DNA from: a virus
Lineage: Duplodnaviria > Heunggongvirae > Uroviricota > Caudoviricetes
DNA length: 6,790 nt
IMG/VR virus record: IMGVR_UViG_3300015179_000038
Reading direction: 5' to 3' (one strand)
The position numbers were made by a program, and so were the translations under genes. The stretch's first letter is position 1, and each line of letters opens with the position of its first letter. Positions 503 through 6,790 of the stretch are shown piece by piece. The notes under the pieces were generated by a model. That model ran no database searches and was not told the origin of the DNA. It was given only the letters and a program-made list of their open reading frames with translations.

Positions 503-786
503 TTTTTACCCCCTGCGACCAGCATTTCACGAATTTTGCGGATATGACTTGCTGCACGTTTCTGATTTACGGCTTTACGATGGCCCACCAGCGTGAAATC
601 ACGCCGGAACTGATAAACAGGCATCACGCAGTCATATTCGTAGCCATCACGGCGGTAAGTGATGCGCCGTTCTGCCACGCCTTTTATCGTTACCGTGCCG
701 CCATAGTTATCCCGGAAAATATCGCCGGGGCGGATTTCAGGCCGAGCGGGGCCGCTGGCAGTAAAGCCAGAATTTTTCTTTTTCAT
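499..786 (-). CDS. Hypothetical small protein B (95 aa)
   Basis: Track ORF. ATG at 786-784 with GGAG about 10 nt upstream; E. coli-like codon usage (CTG, GGC, CGC); stop overlaps the start of gene A. No recognisable domain. Confidence 0.6.
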   Translation of the reverse strand: MKKKNSGFTASGPARPEIRPGDIFRDNYGGTVTIKGVAERRITYRRDGYEYDCVMPVYQFRRDFTLVGHRKAVNQKRAASHIRKIREMLVAGGKK

Positions 787-792
787 GTTTTT

Positions 793-999
793 TTACTCCA
801 GAGGCAGCTTTTTAGCGGCGAGCTCAATATCAGATGTCAGAGAAACCTGTGTATTTGCCAGGTCTAACAACAAAGAAATAAGAATTTCTTCTCTGCTATC
901 GGATTTATCGGTGCTAAGGCTGTTCATCCACATATTGACGACTTCCCTGATTTTTTTTCGCAGAGTGCAGGGCTTCAAATGCCAGGTCTTCAATATCAT
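793..999 (-). CDS. Hypothetical small protein orf68 (68 aa)
   Basis: Track ORF filling the gap between C and B in the same orientation. Its ATG lies 2 nt after the stop of C, and its last codons (CTG GAG TAA) supply the SD for B. Weak own SD, so it depends on translational coupling. Confidence 0.4.
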   Translation of the reverse strand: MILKTWHLKPCTLRKKIREVVNMWMNSLSTDKSDSREEILISLLLDLANTQVSLTSDIELAAKKLPLE

Positions 1000-1001
1000 G
1001 T

Positions 1002-1214
1002 TTATTTCGCATAATCGCCCCCGCGTAGCTGGTCTGCACTAACACCCGATTTAGTGAGCATTTCAGAAAATCCCGCAAGAGTGCTGATAAATTCGTTTTC
1101 CATTAAACGGCACTGACATTTAACCCGGCCTTTTTCCAGATACACCAGTACGCGCCCCGTATAATCTGACGGCACATTCAGCACTACAGGTAAGTGCGAT
1201 TCATGATTATGCAT
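1002..1214 (-). CDS. Hypothetical small protein C (70 aa), paralog of D
   Basis: Track ORF. ATG 1214-1212 preceded by GGGGGTGAG SD inside the 3' end of D; overlaps the D stop by 8 nt. Gap-free alignment with D from residue 19 gives about 13/40 identities (TG-LV--KGRV-C--L). Confidence 0.6.
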   Translation of the reverse strand: MHNHESHLPVVLNVPSDYTGRVLVYLEKGRVKCQCRLMENEFISTLAGFSEMLTKSGVSADQLRGGDYAK

Positions 1215-1416
1215 GTCTCACCCCCTGAATATTCGCATTAATCATTCCGGCACGTTCTGCGAGTTCCTGTAATGATTCCCTTGTTGCGACAATGGCTTCA
1301 TCTGGCAGGTGGTAATTACACACCACGCGACCTTTATCCACATTGACCAGTAGCTGCCCGGTAAATTTCTCACGAAACTGAACGCGGTTAAGGTCGGTAA
1401 GTGACAGGTTAATCAT
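1207..1416 (-). CDS. Hypothetical small protein D (69 aa), paralog of C
   Basis: Track ORF. ATG 1416-1414 preceded by AGGGGGAA SD; start overlaps the TAA stop of E (ATGATTAA). Shares the TGxxLV..KGRVxC core with C. Confidence 0.65.
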   Translation of the reverse strand: MINLSLTDLNRVQFREKFTGQLLVNVDKGRVVCNYHLPDEAIVATRESLQELAERAGMINANIQGVRHA

Positions 1417-1612
1417 GGTGTTCCCCCTGGCGAATACGGGCAGCGAATACCATCACGCAGCCATCAGGAGATTGCTGACGCGCTTCCTGTTCGCTGGTAG
1501 CCTCAATGGTAATCACGCGCGGTTGTGCCGTGCTCAGGGCGATAAAACGCCAGATGTATTTATTCAGGTTGTACGAGTCCCGCCCTTGCGGGTGTCTGGT
1601 ATAATTTCTCAT
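1409..1612 (-). CDS. Hypothetical small protein E (67 aa), first gene of the minus-strand operon
   Basis: In-frame ATG at 1612-1610 inside the 373-aa track ORF, preceded by GAGGT SD at 5-nt spacing. Translation MRNYTRHPQGRDSYNLNKYIWRFIALSTAQPRVITIEATSEQEARQQSPDGCVMVFAARIRQGEHHD looks protein-like, unlike the Cys/Arg/Ser-rich upstream part of that ORF. Confidence 0.5.
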   Translation of the reverse strand: MRNYTRHPQGRDSYNLNKYIWRFIALSTAQPRVITIEATSEQEARQQSPDGCVMVFAARIRQGEHHD

Positions 1613-1708
1613 AGCTACCTCGATACGCTTTCTATCGTTGGTGGTTAGAAGCCCGGTTAGTGTTAGCGCACTGCCGGGTTTCGTCGTTTCTGCACCTTGC
1701 ATCAGTAA

Positions 1709-1763
1709 GGTGTTGAACACCAATTTAAGCTCTGGTGTTAAACACGTCAAGTGTTGAACACTT
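1709..1763. promoter_or_regulatory. Divergent promoter region with three palindromic operator-like sites GTGTT(G/A)AACAC
   Basis: Sites at 1709-1721 (GGTGTTGAACACC), 1734-1745 (GGTGTTAAACAC) and 1749-1763 (AAGTGTTGAACACTT). Candidate + promoter: -35 TTGAAC 1754-1759, -10 CATACT 1777-1782, leading to the ORF at 1812. Candidate - promoter: -35 TTGACG at 1750..1745, -10 TTAAAT at 1728..1723, leading to gene E. The palindromes overlap both. Confidence 0.5.
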
Positions 1764-1811
1764 ATTTTTTTTCCTGCATACTGCATTTGTTTTTTGTAAG
1801 GGGTACACAAC

Positions 1812-1991
1812 ATGGCAACAAAAGCAGTAAACGCAAAATCACAAACAGTTGCGGCAAGGGTTCCGCATGAAGTTATGAACAATGTTGAGGCGGTAAAAAT
1901 GCCTGGTGAAAGTACAGGGCAGTTTGTAACAGCAGCATTAAAGCGAGAAGTTGAATACCGCCAGCGTCGCAAGGCCAAAGAGCAGGAATAA
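1812..1991 (+). CDS. Small ribbon-helix-helix (Arc/CopG-like) DNA-binding protein candidate, 59 aa
   Basis: Not in the supplied track (too short). ATG 1812 with AAGGGG SD 8 nt upstream; TAA at 1989-1991. MATKAVNAKSQTVAARVPHEVMNNVEAVKMPGESTGQFVTAALKREVEYRQRRKAKEQE fits a beta-strand/helix/G-x-S/helix RHH pattern (compare P22 Arc) by eye. Confidence 0.5.
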   Translation: MATKAVNAKSQTVAARVPHEVMNNVEAVKMPGESTGQFVTAALKREVEYRQRRKAKEQE

Positions 1992-2048
1992 CCATCACCA
2001 GCGCCGTGGTGTAAGGTATTACGGCGCATTGCTATGCAGGACAACACA

Positions 2049-2222
2049 ATGACCGATAAAGAATTGACCAAAACATTATCACCGACACGGAAAAGACGGC
2101 GCAGAAAGATAGAGCATGAATCAGAAAGATTCGCGCCATGTGCTTTTGCCCTTGAGCAATTCCTTAAAGAGTACAGGGAAAAGCGCTCATTGCAGGTATG
2201 GCAACGAACTGAACCAGACTGA
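2049..2222 (+). CDS. Hypothetical small basic protein (57 aa from second ATG; track calls 2034)
   Basis: Track ORF 2034-2222. ATG at 2049 has AGGA about 7 nt upstream; ATG at 2034 has none. Highly basic (RKRRRRK); followed by an intrinsic terminator. Weak support. Confidence 0.3.
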   Translation: MTDKELTKTLSPTRKRRRRKIEHESERFAPCAFALEQFLKEYREKRSLQVWQRTEPD

Positions 2223-2288
2223 TTGCATTGCCCACCAGCCGCAAATGTGGCATTGTTGGTGATGCTTTTGTTTTCCCTTGTTCCCACT

Positions 2289-2318
2289 GGCGACCCTTTT
2301 GCGGTCGCCTTTGTTTTG
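2289..2318 (+). terminator. Rho-independent terminator (stem GGCGACC/GGTCGCC, loop CTTTTGC, T-tract)
   Basis: Perfect 7-bp GC-rich stem 2289-2295/2303-2309 followed by TTTGTTTTG. Downstream of the + strand small ORFs. Confidence 0.6.
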
Positions 2319-2413
2319 CTTGTTATCCGGCAATAGTGGCGCTTCACCACACGGTTGATATAATTCCCCTGCACTGATCCATTTTTTTCGCAGCAGGTTA
2401 ATTGTTCAGAAAG

Positions 2414-2441
2414 GCGGTTCCTTATCGGGGCCGCTTTTTTT
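2414..2441 (+). terminator. Rho-independent terminator (8-bp stem with 2 G-U pairs, then TTTTTTT)
   Basis: GCGGTTCC 2414-2421, loop TTATC, GGGGCCGC 2427-2434, T7 run 2435-2441. No T-run on the opposite strand. Confidence 0.6.
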
Positions 2442-2582
2442 ATGCCTGAAAATACCCGATAACATGGCTTTTTAGTTTCACCAGGACGAACGAAGCCCCG
2501 CCCCTGTTCGGGCGTATATCCAGTATTCATGGTTAGATCTCTGTGTTAGTGGATGGGTGGCGGCGGTGCGCCGCCAGCCTGA

Positions 2583-2771
2583 TTAGTGAACTGCCTCGCG
2601 GCTGTCCTTCCATGCCAGAACTTCGGATAAAGACCAGCCAACGGAACGACCGCCGAGTTTACGCCGTGATGGGAATTGTCCGGTCTTCTCCAGGCGATAC
2701 CGACATGAGCGGCTCAGGCCTGTAAGTTGCTGACATTCTTTTTCACGTATAAAGCGATCTGTGCTTAACAC
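2583..2771 (-). CDS. alpA: AlpA/Vis-family phage transcriptional regulator / excisionase-like protein (62 aa)
   Basis: Track ORF; GTG start at 2771 with AAAGGGGG SD. FIREKECQQLTGLSRSCRYRLEKTGQFPSRRKLGGRSVGWSLSEVLAWK matches the AlpA (Phage_AlpA, MerR-like HTH) pattern L-G-S-R-STIYR-GxFP-K-G-R-W-E-W. Same strand as and downstream of int, as in CP4-57 and PICI-type elements. Confidence 0.85.
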   Translation of the reverse strand: MLSTDRFIREKECQQLTGLSRSCRYRLEKTGQFPSRRKLGGRSVGWSLSEVLAWKDSREAVH

Positions 2772-2934
2772 AATTCCCCCTTTGTTGTTTCTTAAAGAGT
2801 CATTGGGTGGGTTATTGGGTTGGGTTGTGTCTGATTGTGTCAGGATGATTCAGAGTTGGCAAATGTTGAGTCCGTATGGTTTACAGAAAGAGGAACAATC
2901 AGGATAAAATCATTTAAATTCATATTAATACAAA

Positions 2935-2963
2935 GGCATAAAATCTCGTTTTATGCCTTTTTT
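2935..2963. terminator. Hairpin with flanking T-runs (potentially bidirectional) between int and alpA
   Basis: Perfect 9-bp stem GGCATAAAA/TTTTATGCC with loop TCTCG, followed on + by TTTTTT and on - by TTTGTATT. Plausibly ends the int transcript before the alpA promoter region. Confidence 0.45.
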
Positions 2964-3054
2964 CTCACGCGTTAAAGCGTTATTCGCTAATGTATAAAAA
3001 ACCAGTCATACAAATAAAATCAGTCACTTATAAACCTGTGTACTTTTTCGCCTC

Positions 3055-3104
3055 TTGTTCGTGGTTGTTCCACGTTGTTTCACATTGTTCGCCGTTGTAT
3101 CTGT
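3055..3104. repeat. Five phased 10-bp direct repeats, consensus TTGTTC-NNNN (iteron-like)
   Basis: TTGTTCGTGG, TTGTTCCACG, TTGTTTCACA, TTGTTCGCCG, TTGTATCTGT at exactly 10-bp register, 43 bp 3' of the int stop. Confidence 0.6.
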
Positions 3105-3146
3105 GTGCTTATCCAGTATGCGCATACTGAAAAAACACGAAAAAAA

Positions 3147-4394
3147 TTATTTTCTTCTGGCTGCTGGTAGTGCGGTTACGTTTTCATGTGCTCCCGCCAG
3201 TATCCCTAACCGCTCCGTCCACATATCCAGCGCATTGCGTTTCGCATCCAGATAACGGGAGTGATTATAGACTCGTTGCATCCCTGGCATCTGGTGTCCT
3301 GTAAGCTGCTCCACGACATGCGGATCAACGCCTAAATCGTTCAGCATGGTTGTAAAGGTGCGCCGGATGTCATGCAGTGACCAGTGGGGGTGATTAAGCC
3401 TCCTGTGCGCTAATCTTCCATACTGCGATACGCTGGCCTCCTGTTTCACTTCCCCCAGCAATAAGCCCGTGTGCCTGTTCTGCTCCACCAGCTGCGTGAT
3501 GAACGGCAGTATTGCTTCCGGTATAGGCCGGAATATGGCTACCTTCGTTTTGCTGTGCTCCTTCGGAACGGTCCAGAGCATTTCGGTAAAATCCCACTCG
3601 CCGATCTCCGATAACCTAAGTTCGACCGTCCGGCATCCGAACACAATCAGGAGGCGGATTAGCGCGATGTAGTAGGGGGAAAATATTTTTTTGTCCAGTG
3701 CCTGCAATAATTCGCCCAGCTCTTTATTGCTTAAGACTCGTTCGCTTATATCCGGTTTTTTCCCAACGTCCGCTACGTTCAGATCATCGAGAACGTTACT
3801 GATTGCATAGCGCCGCCTCCGGCAGTACTTAAGCGCCTGTTTGCATGTCTGTAGCACGAATCCGGCAGTAACAGGTGTTCGCTTTGCCACCTGGTCAAAG
3901 CAGGCCAGCCAGTGCCGTAGCTCGCATTTATCCAGCGGCATAGCACCAATTTTGGTGATTATGTTTTTATTGATCCGGCTTTTCAGTGATTCGTAATCTG
4001 TGCGCTTTTCCTTTGCGTACGACTCAAGCCAATAGGTGAGCGCATCGCCAACCGTTACAGGCTTTAACGCTTCCTGCATGGTGTAATTCAGTTCATAGCG
4101 TGGATTTTTCCCCTCAGCCAGCCATGCGCGACACTGGGCGGCTTTTTCCCTGGCTGCTTTCAGACTCAGATCGGGATAATTTCCCAGCTTAACGCGTTCA
4201 GGTTGTGTCCCTCTTCCCATTCCGGCCCTGTATGTGAAATACCAGGTTAAAAGGCCGCTGGTTGAATGCCTGACGCTCAGGTTTCCACCGTCATTAAGAA
4301 AGGCTGTTTTTTGGACGGGTGTGCCGTTGATTTTCCTTAGTTGTGTGTCACTCAGTTTGTTAAGTGCTCTGCTCATAATTTTGATTCCGGTCAT
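3147..4394 (-). CDS. int: P4-family tyrosine integrase (site-specific recombinase)
   Basis: Track ORF 3147-4397 (GTG); ATG at 4394 or 4376 (MSRALNKLSD) is more likely. N-terminus LSDTQLRK...FLNDGGNLSV...WYFTYR fits the P4-type arm-binding domain; C-terminus has the box II HDIRRT ... LTGH ... RVYNHSRY tyrosine-recombinase motif with the catalytic Arg region GCRTVELRL. Confidence 0.9.
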   Translation of the reverse strand: MTGIKIMSRALNKLSDTQLRKINGTPVQKTAFLNDGGNLSVRHSTSGLLTWYFTYRAGMGRGTQPERVKLGNYPDLSLKAAREKAAQCRAWLAEGKNPRYELNYTMQEALKPVTVGDALTYWLESYAKEKRTDYESLKSRINKNIITKIGAMPLDKCELRHWLACFDQVAKRTPVTAGFVLQTCKQALKYCRRRRYAISNVLDDLNVADVGKKPDISERVLSNKELGELLQALDKKIFSPYYIALIRLLIVFGCRTVELRLSEIGEWDFTEMLWTVPKEHSKTKVAIFRPIPEAILPFITQLVEQNRHTGLLLGEVKQEASVSQYGRLAHRRLNHPHWSLHDIRRTFTTMLNDLGVDPHVVEQLTGHQMPGMQRVYNHSRYLDAKRNALDMWTERLGILAGAHENVTALPAARRK

Positions 4395-4398
4395 CACA

Positions 4399-4527
4399 AT
4401 TAACTACACCATTAACTACACCGATCGTTGCACAAAGGGCTACAACGTGAAACAAGCTGAAACAAGGAAAATTAAAAATCCGTTGAAAATCAAAAACATA
4501 ACGAACAACCTGAAACATTGTGAAACA
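4399..4527. repeat. Putative att / integrase arm-site region: tandem 12-mer ATTAACTACACC x2 plus phased TGAAACA repeats
   Basis: ATTAACTACACC at 4399-4410 and 4411-4422. TGAAACA at 4448, 4458, 4511 and 4521 (two pairs at 10-bp spacing), with degenerate copies at 4484 and 4502. Lies between the int 5' end and the allE start. Confidence 0.5.
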
Positions 4528-4548
4528 GTAAAAAACACTATTTGATAA

Positions 4549-5334
4549 AAGGGATATTTAAATAACGTCACCGGTTACCGCGATGATTTACTGGCTAACC
4601 GTGCGATTGTTAAACACGGTAATTTCGCACTGTTAACACCAGACGGTCTGGTAAAAAATATTATTCCGGGCTTTGAAAATTGTGACGCGACAATCCTCTC
4701 CACGCCAAAGCTGGGTGCCTCTTTTGTTGATTATCTGGTCACACTGCATCAAAACGGTGGCAACCAACAGGGCTTCGGTGGCGAAGGCATTGAAACGTTC
4801 CTGTATGTGATCTCTGGAAATATCACTGCCAAAGCCGAAGGCAAAACATTTGCCTTAAGCGAAGGTGGCTATCTTTATTGCCCGCCAGGCTCCTTAATGA
4901 CGTTTGTTAACGCCCATGCCGAAGACAGCCAAATCTTTTTATATAAGCGCCGCTATGTTCCAATAGAAGGCCATGCACCGTGGCTGGTTTCTGGCAATGC
5001 CAGCGAACTGGAACGCATTCATTATGAAGGCATGGACGATGTTATTCTGCTGGATTTTCTGCCCAAAGAGTTAGGTTTTGATATGAACATGCATATCCTC
5101 TCTTTTGCACCAGGTGCCAGCCACGGTTATATCGAAACACACGTTCAGGAACACGGTGCCTATATTCTTTCCGGTCAGGGGGTTTATAACCTCGACAATA
5201 ACTGGATCCCGGTGAAAAAAGGCGATTACATCTTTATGGGCGCTTATTCTTTACAGGCTGGTTATGGTGTAGGGCGTGGTGAAGCGTTCAGCTATATTTA
5301 CTCGAAAGATTGTAACCGCGACGTAGAGATTTAA
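4549..5334 (+). CDS. allE: (S)-ureidoglycine aminohydrolase (cupin; YlbA/AllE); frame lacks a canonical start codon here
   Basis: The track ORF starts at GTG 4807, but the frame is open and protein-like from 4549 (KGYLNNVTGYREDLLANRAIVKHGNFALL...), giving 261 codons to TAA 5332-5334, which matches the length I recall for E. coli AllE. Codon 4549-4551 is AAG, preceded by TGA TAA. Confidence 0.75.
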   Translation, partial: KGYLNNVTGYRDDLLANRAIVKHGNFALLTPDGLVKNIIPGFENCDATILSTPKLGASFVDYLVTLHQNGGNQQGFGGEGIETFLYVISGNITAKAEGKTFALSEGGYLYCPPGSLMTFVNAHAEDSQIFLYKRRYVPIEGHAPWLVSGNASELERIHYEGMDDVILLDFLPKELGFDMNMHILSFAPGASHGYIETHVQEHGAYILSGQGVYNLDNNWIPVKKGDYIFMGAYSLQAGYGVGRGEAFSYIYSKDCNRDVEI

Positions 5335-6758: not shown

Positions 6759-6790
6759 AGATCGGAAGAGCACACGTCTGAACTCCAGTC
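6759..6790. other. Illumina TruSeq adapter sequence (technical artefact at contig end)
   Basis: AGATCGGAAGAGCACACGTCTGAACTCCAGTC is the standard TruSeq read-1 3' adapter. Genomic sequence ends at 6758. Confidence 0.95.

What the first reader, a model, noticed from the sequence alone, without database searches (positions are those of the whole stretch)
3055..3129. Iteron-like array (5 x 10 bp, TTGTTC-N4) plus perfect 16-bp palindrome immediately 3' of int
Exact 10-bp phasing places all five TTGTTC cores on one helical face, typical of replication-origin iterons or arm-type recombinase sites. The units TGTTCCAC and TGTTTCAC resemble the P4 ori/crr type I iteron TGTTCACC bound by the alpha primase (recalled from memory, not verified). 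CAGTATGCGCATACTG (3114-3129) is a perfect palindrome between the array and the int stop. Together these suggest an origin or cis-acting site.
Basis: partly seen in the sequence, partly recalled or inferred. Interest (0 to 1): 0.5.

Follow-up and report, generated by a model that had tools for sequence, protein, structure and literature searches.

The report
Candidate AlpA operator array, not origin
The 10-bp repeat array after the integrase gene is real and conserved. It is most likely a row of docking sites for the satellite island's small AlpA excision/regulator protein, and it is not a P4-like replication origin.

Summary
Five TTGT-cored units sit at exact 10-bp phase at 3055-3104, and no shuffle in 200 reproduced this. 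A perfect 16-bp palindrome lies at 3114-3129.

The window is the int/alpA end of an E. coli capsid-forming PICI satellite inserted next to allE.

The origin reading fails:
- The P4 iteron TGTTCACC is absent from the window.
- In a 99%-identical island it occurs 9 times immediately 3' of the primase gene.
- Across 76 related islands, iterons change with the replicase type while this array does not.

The array belongs to a family of 10-bp-phased (G/A)AACAA units. These occur only inside the island: in both att arms, upstream of the capsid operon, and between int and alpA. Only ACAA is conserved; the spacers drift.

This is the signature of winged-helix excisionase/regulator sites. The mapped TorI sites of prophage KplE1 (GTTCG cores, blocks of 2 and 3) are the closest analogue. 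Published AlpA self-activation used a fragment that contains the homologous array.

Best reading: AlpA operator array (about 0.6). The palindrome is lineage-specific and probably not functional. This is a new member of a known kind, of moderate interest.

The parts
3045..3104 (-). Phased array: five clear units plus one degenerate unit of nnnGnaACAA, read on the int-sense (minus) strand. On the plus strand the units are TTGTTCGTGG, TTGTTCCACG, TTGTTTCACA, TTGTTCGCCG and TTGTATCTGT at 3055-3104. Candidate AlpA operator array.
   Evidence: None of 200 shuffles reproduced it. ACAA carries about 2 bits per position across 40 distinct units, while the spacers carry 0.5 bits or less. Related loci have 5-7 units, with one 10-bp unit gain in L052.
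3114..3129 (.). Perfect 16-bp palindrome CAGTATGCGCATACTG. It is lineage-specific and probably incidental, or a hairpin in the int 3' UTR.
   Evidence: the minus-strand RNA fold has z = -4.9, but no U-tract follows it; perfect in 39 of 62 loci, single uncompensated mismatch in 4, absent in 19, where another ACAA unit takes its place.
3018..3030 (+). IHF-consensus match AATCAGTCACTTA (WATCARNNNNTTR), about 25 bp from the array.
   Evidence: Read directly. The consensus is kept in all group-1 lineages although flanks diverge (CFT073 AATCAAATGGTTA, L009 AATCAAATAGTTA, L010 AATCAACTTTTTA). The TGATTTT core is invariant in the 47-sequence alignment.
2982..3006 (-). Conserved block ACTGGTTTTTTATACATTAGCGAAT (minus strand). 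Its role is unknown.
   Evidence: most columns are invariant across 47 distinct intergenic sequences. No sigma-70 match was called there.
2932..2960 (.). Conserved hairpin, like a bidirectional terminator, between int and the alpA promoter.
   Evidence: -13.4 kcal/mol, z = -4.8 on the plus strand and -3.1 on the minus strand. A compensatory A-T to G-C change is seen in L009.
2834..2862 (-). Predicted alpA promoter, TTGCCA-N17-CACAAT with TG before the -10. Two further phased units, GACACAAtcaGACACAA (2825-2841), overlap the -10 and +1 region.
   Evidence: the only promoter-like hit in 2560-3200. TTTGCCA is invariant. One search shows the phased ACACA units at the homologous place in EcCICFT073.
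2583..2771 (-). alpA: a 62-aa protein of the Phage_AlpA family, the proposed binder of the array.
   Evidence: PF05930, E = 2.7e-18. (44% identity to P4 Vis). (PHROG 'excisionase and transcriptional regulator'). (26% identity to TorI).
3147..4376 (-). int: a P4-type tyrosine integrase with an N-terminal arm-binding domain.
   Evidence: Arm-DNA-bind_3 plus Phage_integrase. (annotation in L001).
4399..4422 (+). Tandem 12-mers ATTAACTACACC x2, next to the int start. Proposed Int arm-type sites. An identical pair lies in the other arm, outside the window.
   Evidence: repeat D1: a 75-nt duplication at both island ends. (P4 carries annotated attP arm 12-mer pairs at the same two positions).
4440..4466 (+). 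att-arm block 1: three phased units, CTACAA, GAAACAA and GAAACAA.
4503..4528 (+). att-arm block 2: three phased units, GAACAA, GAAACA and GAAACA. It overlaps the predicted Pint (TTCACA-N18-TATGTT, 4524 to 4495).
4549..4570 (.). Approximate att core and island boundary (AAAGGGATATTTAAATAAC).
   Evidence: homologous islands at other sites stop matching at window position 4550. The boundary is an inference.

Best explanation
The array is an operator for AlpA, the island's own small winged-helix protein and a homologue of P4 Vis and KplE1 TorI.

Proposed mechanism:
- AlpA monomers bind head-to-tail, one per helical turn, to the 5-6 ACAA-cored units and bend the DNA.
- With the adjacent IHF site, this complex takes part in the positive autoregulation of the alpA operon. 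That operon is the on-switch of the satellite.
- The same protein binding the same motif in both att arms would drive Int-dependent excision. There Int itself would sit on the ATTAACTACACC 12-mer pairs.
- A three-unit copy at about -53 to -77 of the capsid-operon promoter would couple packaging-gene expression to induction.

Shown here: the array, its phasing, its selective conservation, its island-only distribution at five places, and its independence from the replicon.

Shown in the literature: AlpA activates a fragment that contains the homologous array. AlpA overexpression triggers int-dependent excision.

Inferred: that AlpA is the protein that touches these units, and how binding changes transcription.
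For: 1. Distribution. The three-unit phased pattern (2 mismatches allowed) gives 12 hits in 41.7 kb of L001. All lie in five island clusters: left arm, upstream of the capsid operon, int-alpA, and two right-arm blocks. None lies in 27 kb of host flank, and chance expectation is 0.59. The same layout holds in a Shigella island, in EcCICFT073 and in a roxA-site island.
2. Selection. In 244 units (40 distinct) only ACAA is conserved, at about 2 bits per position, while spacers drift. Unit number changes in 10-bp steps.
3. A Phage_AlpA gene lies directly downstream.
4. Binding sites of recombination directionality factors are direct repeats one helical turn apart, and some of these proteins also act at promoters (PMC7498355; PMC11963761).
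5. KplE1 has five mapped TorI sites, in blocks of 2 and 3, with GTTCG/GATCG/GTCCG cores. The block of 3 is 10-bp phased and lies between the core and the Int arm sites (PMC2951348; sequence read). The layout matches this island's P arm, and GTTCG is the exact core of two units of the array.
6. IntS has the same domain architecture as this Int.
7. The AlpA-activated PalpA-lacZ fragment of EcCICFT073 was tested in DH5alpha with no other island gene. Its primers map from the last codons of int to codon 19 of alpA, so it includes the homologous 6-unit array.
8. The capsid-operon copy sits 17 bp upstream of a predicted -35.
Against: No binding data exist for any PICI AlpA. The assignment of AlpA rather than Int rests on analogy with KplE1 and P4.

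AlpA and this Int family always co-occur in the loci I could fetch, so no mosaic element separates them.

Published data say AlpA does not change Pint-lacZ in EcCICFT073, and that fragment contains the arm blocks. This is unexpected if AlpA binds over Pint.

The array is about 200 bp upstream of the predicted alpA promoter, with a terminator-like hairpin in between. The route from binding to activation is therefore unclear.

In a second lineage (AlpA about 60% identical), the place right after int holds a different 10-bp array of AATATCG type. The CGAAC-type array there sits nearer alpA.
Confidence: 0.6

Rival explanations
1. The units are arm-type sites bound by the N-terminal domain of the integrase. 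The array would be an Int store or regulatory site at the end of its own gene.
For: The same motif lies in both att arms next to the core. Int carries an arm-binding domain. AlpA and Int cannot be separated by mosaic elements. AlpA had no effect on Pint in EcCICFT073.
Against: P4 has annotated arm 12-mers as tandem pairs exactly where this island has ATTAACTACACC x2, in both arms. Four 12-mers fit an Int tetramer, whereas there are 15 or more ACAA units, two clusters of which lie 1.3 kb and 7.7 kb from the att core. In KplE1 the GTTCG repeats are RDF sites and the Int arm sites are a different motif. The AlpA response of the intergenic fragment needs no Int.
Confidence: 0.12
2. This is a replication origin or auxiliary cis-replication site whose iterons are bound by the island's primase, like P4 ori/crr.
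For: There is a superficial likeness between TGTTCCAC/TGTTTCAC and TGTTCACC. A conserved IHF consensus and an A+T-rich block lie next to the array. In P4 the ori lies upstream of vis, the alpA homologue. In the Klebsiella relative the array unit CTGTTCATCA differs by one base from its iteron CTGTTCACCA.
Against: There is no exact TGTTCACC in the window, and one-mismatch hits are at chance. Nine exact copies lie within 221 bp directly 3' of the primase gene in a 99%-identical island. Published work locates the ori of Gram-negative PICIs 3' of rep and confirmed it by plasmid maintenance for the EcCICFT073 pri-rep-ori segment. Across 76 loci, seven iteron families track three replicase types while the int-alpA array stays (G/A/C)AACAA. 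L006 has an identical array but a RepA helicase instead of a primase.
Confidence: 0.03
3. The array is a sensor for the helper phage: a docking site for a helper-encoded protein such as its excisionase. The model is P2 Cox, which binds three 10-bp-phased boxes upstream of the P4 vis promoter.
For: P4's 'ori type 2 repeats' are three 10-bp units CCACTTAAAG upstream of vis. From my own knowledge these are the Cox boxes. The reference is listed in PMC7498355 but was not read here. Helper phages lambda and phi80 induce alpA transcription from a reporter that carries this region, and the inducer is unknown. Excisionase cross-talk between a PICI and its helper has been reported (PMC11773190).
Against: The motif also sits in the island's own att arms and at its capsid promoter. 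This points to an island-encoded protein. AlpA alone activates the fragment. No helper protein with this specificity is known.
Confidence: 0.1
4. The array has no DNA-level function. It would be a slippage-prone tandem repeat, or an RNA element in the int 3' UTR.
For: It lies between the int stop and a terminator-like hairpin, so it may be transcribed with int. Unit number varies.
Against: Only four of ten positions are conserved, across lineages whose surrounding sequence is about 72% identical. The same motif recurs in both orientations at four other places, always inside the island. No Rfam family matches.
Confidence: 0.05

Closest known systems
TorI (RDF) binding sites I1-I5 in attL of prophage KplE1/CPS-53 (PMC2951348)
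   Same: Short cores (GTTCG, GATCG, GTCCG), in two blocks of 2 and 3. The block of 3 is at 10-bp phase, lies between the att core and the Int arm-type sites, and is next to the int promoter. The integrase has the same Arm-DNA-bind_3 architecture. The RDF is a small winged-helix protein 26% identical to this AlpA.
   Different: KplE1 sites are known only in attL. Here further arrays lie 1.3 kb and 7.7 kb from the att core, and the largest (5-6 units) lies between int and alpA. The conserved core here is ACAA/TTGT rather than GTTCG. Binding is not demonstrated here.
Apl of phage 186 and Cox of P2: RDFs that also regulate promoters (PMC7498355)
   Same: Direct repeats at 10-11 bp spacing, 5-7 units, found both at att and at promoter regions. 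Binding is cooperative and of low specificity, with bending.
   Different: Apl and Cox repress the lysis-lysogeny switch promoters. PICI AlpA is reported as an activator of its own operon (PMC6092414). The protein families differ.
P4 Vis and the P4 attP/ori region (NC_001609 annotation)
   Same: Vis is 44% identical to this AlpA. P4 has tandem 12-mer arm repeats in both arms at the same positions, and 10-bp-phased GGACAA/GGAAGA/GGACGA between the pair and the core.
   Different: P4 ori and crr carry TGTTCACC, which this array lacks. That Vis binds two boxes between int and the core is recalled from Cali et al. 2004, which I could not read.
Replication origins of Gram-negative PICIs (PMC6092414, Fig. 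2)
   Same: Short repeated units near an A+T-rich stretch.
   Different: Those origins lie immediately 3' of the replicase gene, and their iterons are specific to the replicase. This array is 3' of int and does not depend on the replicase.

Membership tests
P4-type origin (ori/crr type I iterons bound by alpha primase) | Multiple exact copies of TGTTCACC in both orientations | tested here: not met
   No exact copy in the window. Six one-mismatch hits against 5.3 expected, only one of them in the array. P4 itself has them annotated.
P4-type origin (ori/crr type I iterons bound by alpha primase) | Iterons covary with the replication initiator and lie next to its gene | tested here: not met
   Seven iteron families 3' of three replicase types in 76 loci, with the array unchanged. 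Nine TGTTCACC copies lie 3' of the primase gene in L001.
P4-type origin (ori/crr type I iterons bound by alpha primase) | Supports replication when the initiator is supplied | not testable with these tools
   Needs a plasmid maintenance assay. Published for the EcCICFT073 pri-rep-ori segment, whose ori lies 3' of the rep gene.
RDF / winged-helix regulator operator arrays (Xis, Cox, Apl, TorI, Vis) | Direct (head-to-tail) repeats spaced one helical turn apart | tested here: met
   Five or six units at exactly 10 bp, all in one orientation.
RDF / winged-helix regulator operator arrays (Xis, Cox, Apl, TorI, Vis) | Same motif present in the att arm between core and Int arm-type sites | tested here: met
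   Blocks at 4440-4466 and 4503-4528, and in the left arm (L001 6852-6886).
RDF / winged-helix regulator operator arrays (Xis, Cox, Apl, TorI, Vis) | A small winged-helix RDF gene in the same element | tested here: met
   alpA at 2583-2771, PF05930. PHROG annotation 'excisionase and transcriptional regulator'.
RDF / winged-helix regulator operator arrays (Xis, Cox, Apl, TorI, Vis) | Short conserved core with degenerate flanks (low-specificity sites) | tested here: met
   ACAA at about 2 bits per position; other positions 0.5 bits or less, except one G at about 1 bit.
RDF / winged-helix regulator operator arrays (Xis, Cox, Apl, TorI, Vis) | Demonstrated cooperative binding and bending by the RDF | not testable with these tools
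   Needs EMSA or footprinting. The only indirect support is AlpA activation of a fragment that contains the homologous array.
Lambda-type Int arm-type sites | Sites confined to the att arms, in numbers matched to an Int tetramer | tested here: not met
   At least 15 units, with two clusters 1.3 kb and 7.7 kb from the core. The four 12-mers fit this role better.
Lambda-type Int arm-type sites | Bound by the Int N-terminal domain | not testable with these tools
   Needs binding assays.
Capsid-forming PICI (context of the window) | int, alpA and pri-rep, plus own capsid, protease, portal, connector, HNH, terS and terL; no tail or lysis genes; about 15 kb | tested here: met
   Annotation of the 99%-identical island in L001 and of L160. 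The family is described in 10.1101/2022.09.08.507074.

The most novel reading that the evidence does not exclude
The array is where the helper phage is sensed. A helper-encoded winged-helix protein, such as its excisionase, would nucleate on the phased TTGT units, alone or mixed with AlpA, and switch on alpA. The model is P2 Cox acting on the three phased boxes upstream of P4 vis. This would give a molecular answer to how lambdoid helpers induce Gram-negative PICIs, which the PICI papers leave open.
Probability: 0.1. Interest if true: 0.7.

Novelty: new member of a known kind. Interest (0 to 1): 0.38.

Why it matters
AlpA is the master switch of Gram-negative PICIs and cf-PICIs, yet none of the papers I could search maps its DNA targets. 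This analysis gives a concrete, testable target set: ACAA cores at 10-bp phase, at five places. It links excision, self-activation and possibly capsid-gene expression to one protein. It also separates that target set cleanly from the replication origin. It is useful for annotating satellites and for engineering PICI-based delivery vehicles. The principle itself, phased operators for an excisionase/regulator, is already well known.

Tried and rejected
- Origin hypothesis. I tested it against the P4 record, the iteron cluster 3' of the primase gene, and replicase/iteron covariation, and rejected it.
- Mosaic elements. I looked for islands with the same AlpA but a different integrase, to separate AlpA from Int. 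A search of IMG/VR with AlpA returned only the same Int family or contigs cut at int. The genome-contig scan gave a single Shigella locus.
- P4 Vis and Int papers. I tried to read Cali 2004 and Piazzolla 2006, but they are not held. Statements about Vis Box I/II are from memory only.
- Klebsiella relative 'Ant'. I checked whether its array motif is also enriched in its att arms. The result was not convincing, so I use it only for positional conservation of a 10-bp array.
- Rfam search of 2500-4700: nothing found.
- Palindrome as int terminator: rejected, because no U-tract follows it on the int strand and it is not conserved.
- Pseudomonas AlpA antiterminator model. That protein is much larger, with an N-terminal RNAP-exit-channel ring that the 62-aa protein lacks. 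Not applicable.
- Sigma-70 promoter directly downstream of the array: none called.

Full report
**Observation**

The plus strand at 3055-3104 reads TTGTTCGTGG TTGTTCCACG TTGTTTCACA TTGTTCGCCG TTGTATCTGT. Five TTGT cores at exact 10-bp spacing occur once in the window and in none of 200 dinucleotide-preserving shuffles. A two-unit TTGTTY pattern gives 7 hits against 0.4 expected. The 16-bp palindrome at 3114-3129 is perfect. The int stop codon is at 3147-3149 on the minus strand.

**Context**

- The window is E. coli chromosome.
- Int (3147-4376, minus strand) has Arm-DNA-bind_3 and Phage_integrase domains.
- The 62-aa gene at 2583-2771 (minus strand) is a Phage_AlpA family protein, 44% identical to P4 Vis.
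- A 99%-identical island in strain E200086 (L001) is about 14 kb and lies between allC and allE.
- That island carries int, alpA, an Icd-like gene, primase, SSB and ProQ/FinO. It also carries major capsid protein, protease, portal, connector, HNH, terS and terL.
- This is the gene set of a capsid-forming PICI (10.1101/2022.09.08.507074).
- The finding lies in the int-to-alpA intergenic region. Both genes are on the minus strand.

**Why it is not an origin**

The P4 record confirms that TGTTCACC is the 'ori type 1 repeat' of P4 ori and crr. The window has no exact copy, and one-mismatch hits are at chance level.

In L001, nine exact copies in both orientations fill 221 bp immediately 3' of the primase gene. 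This region is outside the window. Published work places the origin of Gram-negative PICIs there and confirmed it by plasmid maintenance for the EcCICFT073 pri-rep-ori segment (PMC6092414).

I fetched 80 related loci from IMG/VR. In 76 replicase/locus pairs, the region 3' of the replicase gene carries 8-mers repeated 4-12 times, and these track the replicase type:

| Replicase type | Repeated 8-mers 3' of the gene |
|---|---|
| Primase | CTGTTCAC(C), GGTAGACA or CCTCTACC |
| RepA helicase | AAAGTGAGG or AAAGTGGGGA |
| DUF927 | TGCGGGTTA or GGGACAAC |

The int-alpA array stays (G/A/C)AACAA throughout the first lineage. L006 has an array identical to the window's but a RepA helicase instead of a primase.

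**What the array belongs to**

On the int-sense strand the units read nnnGnaACAA. A three-unit phased pattern with two mismatches allowed gives 12 hits in the 41.7 kb of L001, against 0.59 expected. All 12 fall in five island clusters and none in 27 kb of host flank:

- the left att arm;
- a site upstream of the capsid operon, 96% complementary to the finding's array over 25 nt;
- the finding's array;
- two blocks in the right att arm (window 4440-4466 and 4503-4528).

The same layout holds in a Shigella island, in a roxA-site cf-PICI and in EcCICFT073, except that EcCICFT073 has no capsid-promoter copy.

Each arm also carries a tandem pair of the 12-mer ATTAACTACACC. P4 has annotated attP arm 12-mer pairs at the same two positions. 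I take the 12-mers as the Int arm-type sites.

**Conservation**

In 62 loci of the first lineage (47 distinct intergenic sequences), the ACAA columns are invariant or nearly so while the spacers drift. From 244 units (40 distinct), ACAA carries about 2 bits per position and the other positions 0.5 bits or less, apart from one G at about 1 bit. Arrays have 5-7 units, and one locus has gained exactly one 10-bp unit.

Other conserved features in the same region:

- an IHF-consensus match at 3018-3030;
- a block of unknown role at 2982-3006;
- a hairpin at 2932-2960, with one compensatory change;
- a predicted promoter TTGCCA-N17-CACAAT at 2862 to 2834, overlapped by two more phased ACACAA units.

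The palindrome is not conserved. It is perfect in 39 of 62 loci, has an uncompensated mismatch in 4, and is absent in 19, where one more ACAA unit takes its place.

A Klebsiella relative (Int 50% identical) also has a 10-bp-phased array between int and its alpA homologue, with the unit TGTTCATC.

**Who binds**

Recombination directionality factors bind head-to-tail to direct repeats one helical turn apart. Several of them (Apl, Cox, Vis) also act at promoters (PMC7498355; PMC11963761).

The closest mapped case is prophage KplE1:

- TorI has five sites in attL, in blocks of 2 and 3, with cores GTTCG, GATCG and GTCCG.
- The block of three is at 10-bp phase next to the int promoter.
- The Int arm sites lie nearer to int (PMC2951348; sequence read).
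- IntS has the same domain architecture as this Int, and TorI is a distant homologue of this AlpA.

The P arm here has the same order: core, block of 3, block of 2-3, 12-mer pair, int. GTTCG is the exact core of two units of the finding's array.

Fillol-Salom et al. showed that AlpA alone activates a PalpA-lacZ fusion in DH5alpha. Their primers map from the last codons of int to codon 19 of alpA, so that fragment contains the homologous 6-unit array.

**Mechanism proposed**

1. A helper phage induces alpA. This is shown for EcCICFT073 in the literature.
2. AlpA coats the phased units. This is inferred.
3. At the int-alpA array, with IHF, this feeds back positively on the alpA operon. The response of the fragment is shown. 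The site and the route are inferred.
4. At the arms, AlpA bends DNA for Int-dependent excision. This is inferred by analogy. That AlpA overexpression triggers int-dependent excision is published.
5. The copy at about -53 to -77 of the predicted capsid-operon promoter would tie packaging genes to induction. This is inferred.

**Weak points**

- No binding data exist for any PICI AlpA.
- AlpA and Int could not be separated by mosaic elements.
- AlpA did not change Pint-lacZ in EcCICFT073, although that fragment holds the arm blocks.
- A hairpin lies between the array and the predicted promoter.
- A second lineage (AlpA about 60% identical) has a different 10-bp array right after int, and its CGAAC-type array sits closer to alpA.

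**Verdict**

This is a real, conserved, phased protein-binding array of a cf-PICI. It is most likely an AlpA operator (0.6). It is not an origin (0.03). The palindrome is incidental. It is a new member of a known kind, of moderate interest.

Noticed in passing
window 6759-6790: The window ends in AGATCGGAAGAGCACACGTCTGAACTCCAGTC. From my own knowledge this is the Illumina TruSeq read-1 adapter. It also matched the ends of unrelated phage records. The contig end appears to be adapter contamination.
   Followed up: partly
L001 15474-15694 (outside the window, 3' of the primase gene): Nine exact copies of the P4 type-I iteron TGTTCACC, in both orientations, flank an A+T-rich stretch. This is the island's likely origin.
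   Followed up: yes
L011-L090, region 3' of the replicase genes: Three replicase types (primase, RepA helicase, DUF927) share a homologous N-terminal domain of about 130 aa but have different C-terminal domains. Each comes with its own iteron families, seven in all. This looks like modular swapping of replicon specificity.
   Followed up: partly
window 2932-2960: Conserved hairpin between int and the alpA promoter, with a T-run on the plus strand and a weaker one on the minus strand, and a compensatory change in L009. It may be a bidirectional terminator or the end of a short plus-strand RNA.
   Followed up: partly
window 2982-3006 and 3018-3030: A strongly conserved block (ACTGGTTTTTTATACATTAGCGAAT on the minus strand) of unknown role, and an IHF-consensus match kept in all lineages.
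   Followed up: partly
L067-L090, first 80 nt after int: A second island lineage has a different 10-bp-phased array right after int (units AATATCG/T or AAGTTCG, 3-4 copies). It does not track the AlpA subtypes. The binder is unknown.
   Followed up: partly
window 4399-4466 and L001 6820-6894: A 75-nt module (12-mer pair plus two phased units) is duplicated in direct orientation in both att arms, at 79% identity.
   Followed up: partly
L160 (strain E200139) compared with the window: A cf-PICI with a 100% identical int-alpA intergenic region sits at a different chromosomal site (phoQ/roxA rather than allC/allE). The integrase or arm allele seems to set the site while the rest of the island is shared.
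   Followed up: no
window 513-1413 and 1409-2530: Window 513-1413 does not match the otherwise 99%-identical island L001, so this is a mosaic module. The 373-aa ORF at 1409-2530 (minus strand) has an Icd-like / 'transcriptional repressor' C-terminus. In relatives it is annotated as a pseudogene plus a short Icd-like gene.
   Followed up: no
window 2268-2283: A further two-unit match, TTGTTTTCCCTTGTTC, lies inside the 373-aa ORF. It could be chance or a sixth site.
   Followed up: no
L004 (P4) 3978-4005 and 4040-4070: P4 has 10-bp-phased GGACAA/GGAAGA/GGACGA and GGACTT/GGATGG/GGAAGT between its arm 12-mers and the core. These may be the Vis boxes reported in a paper I could not read.
   Followed up: no
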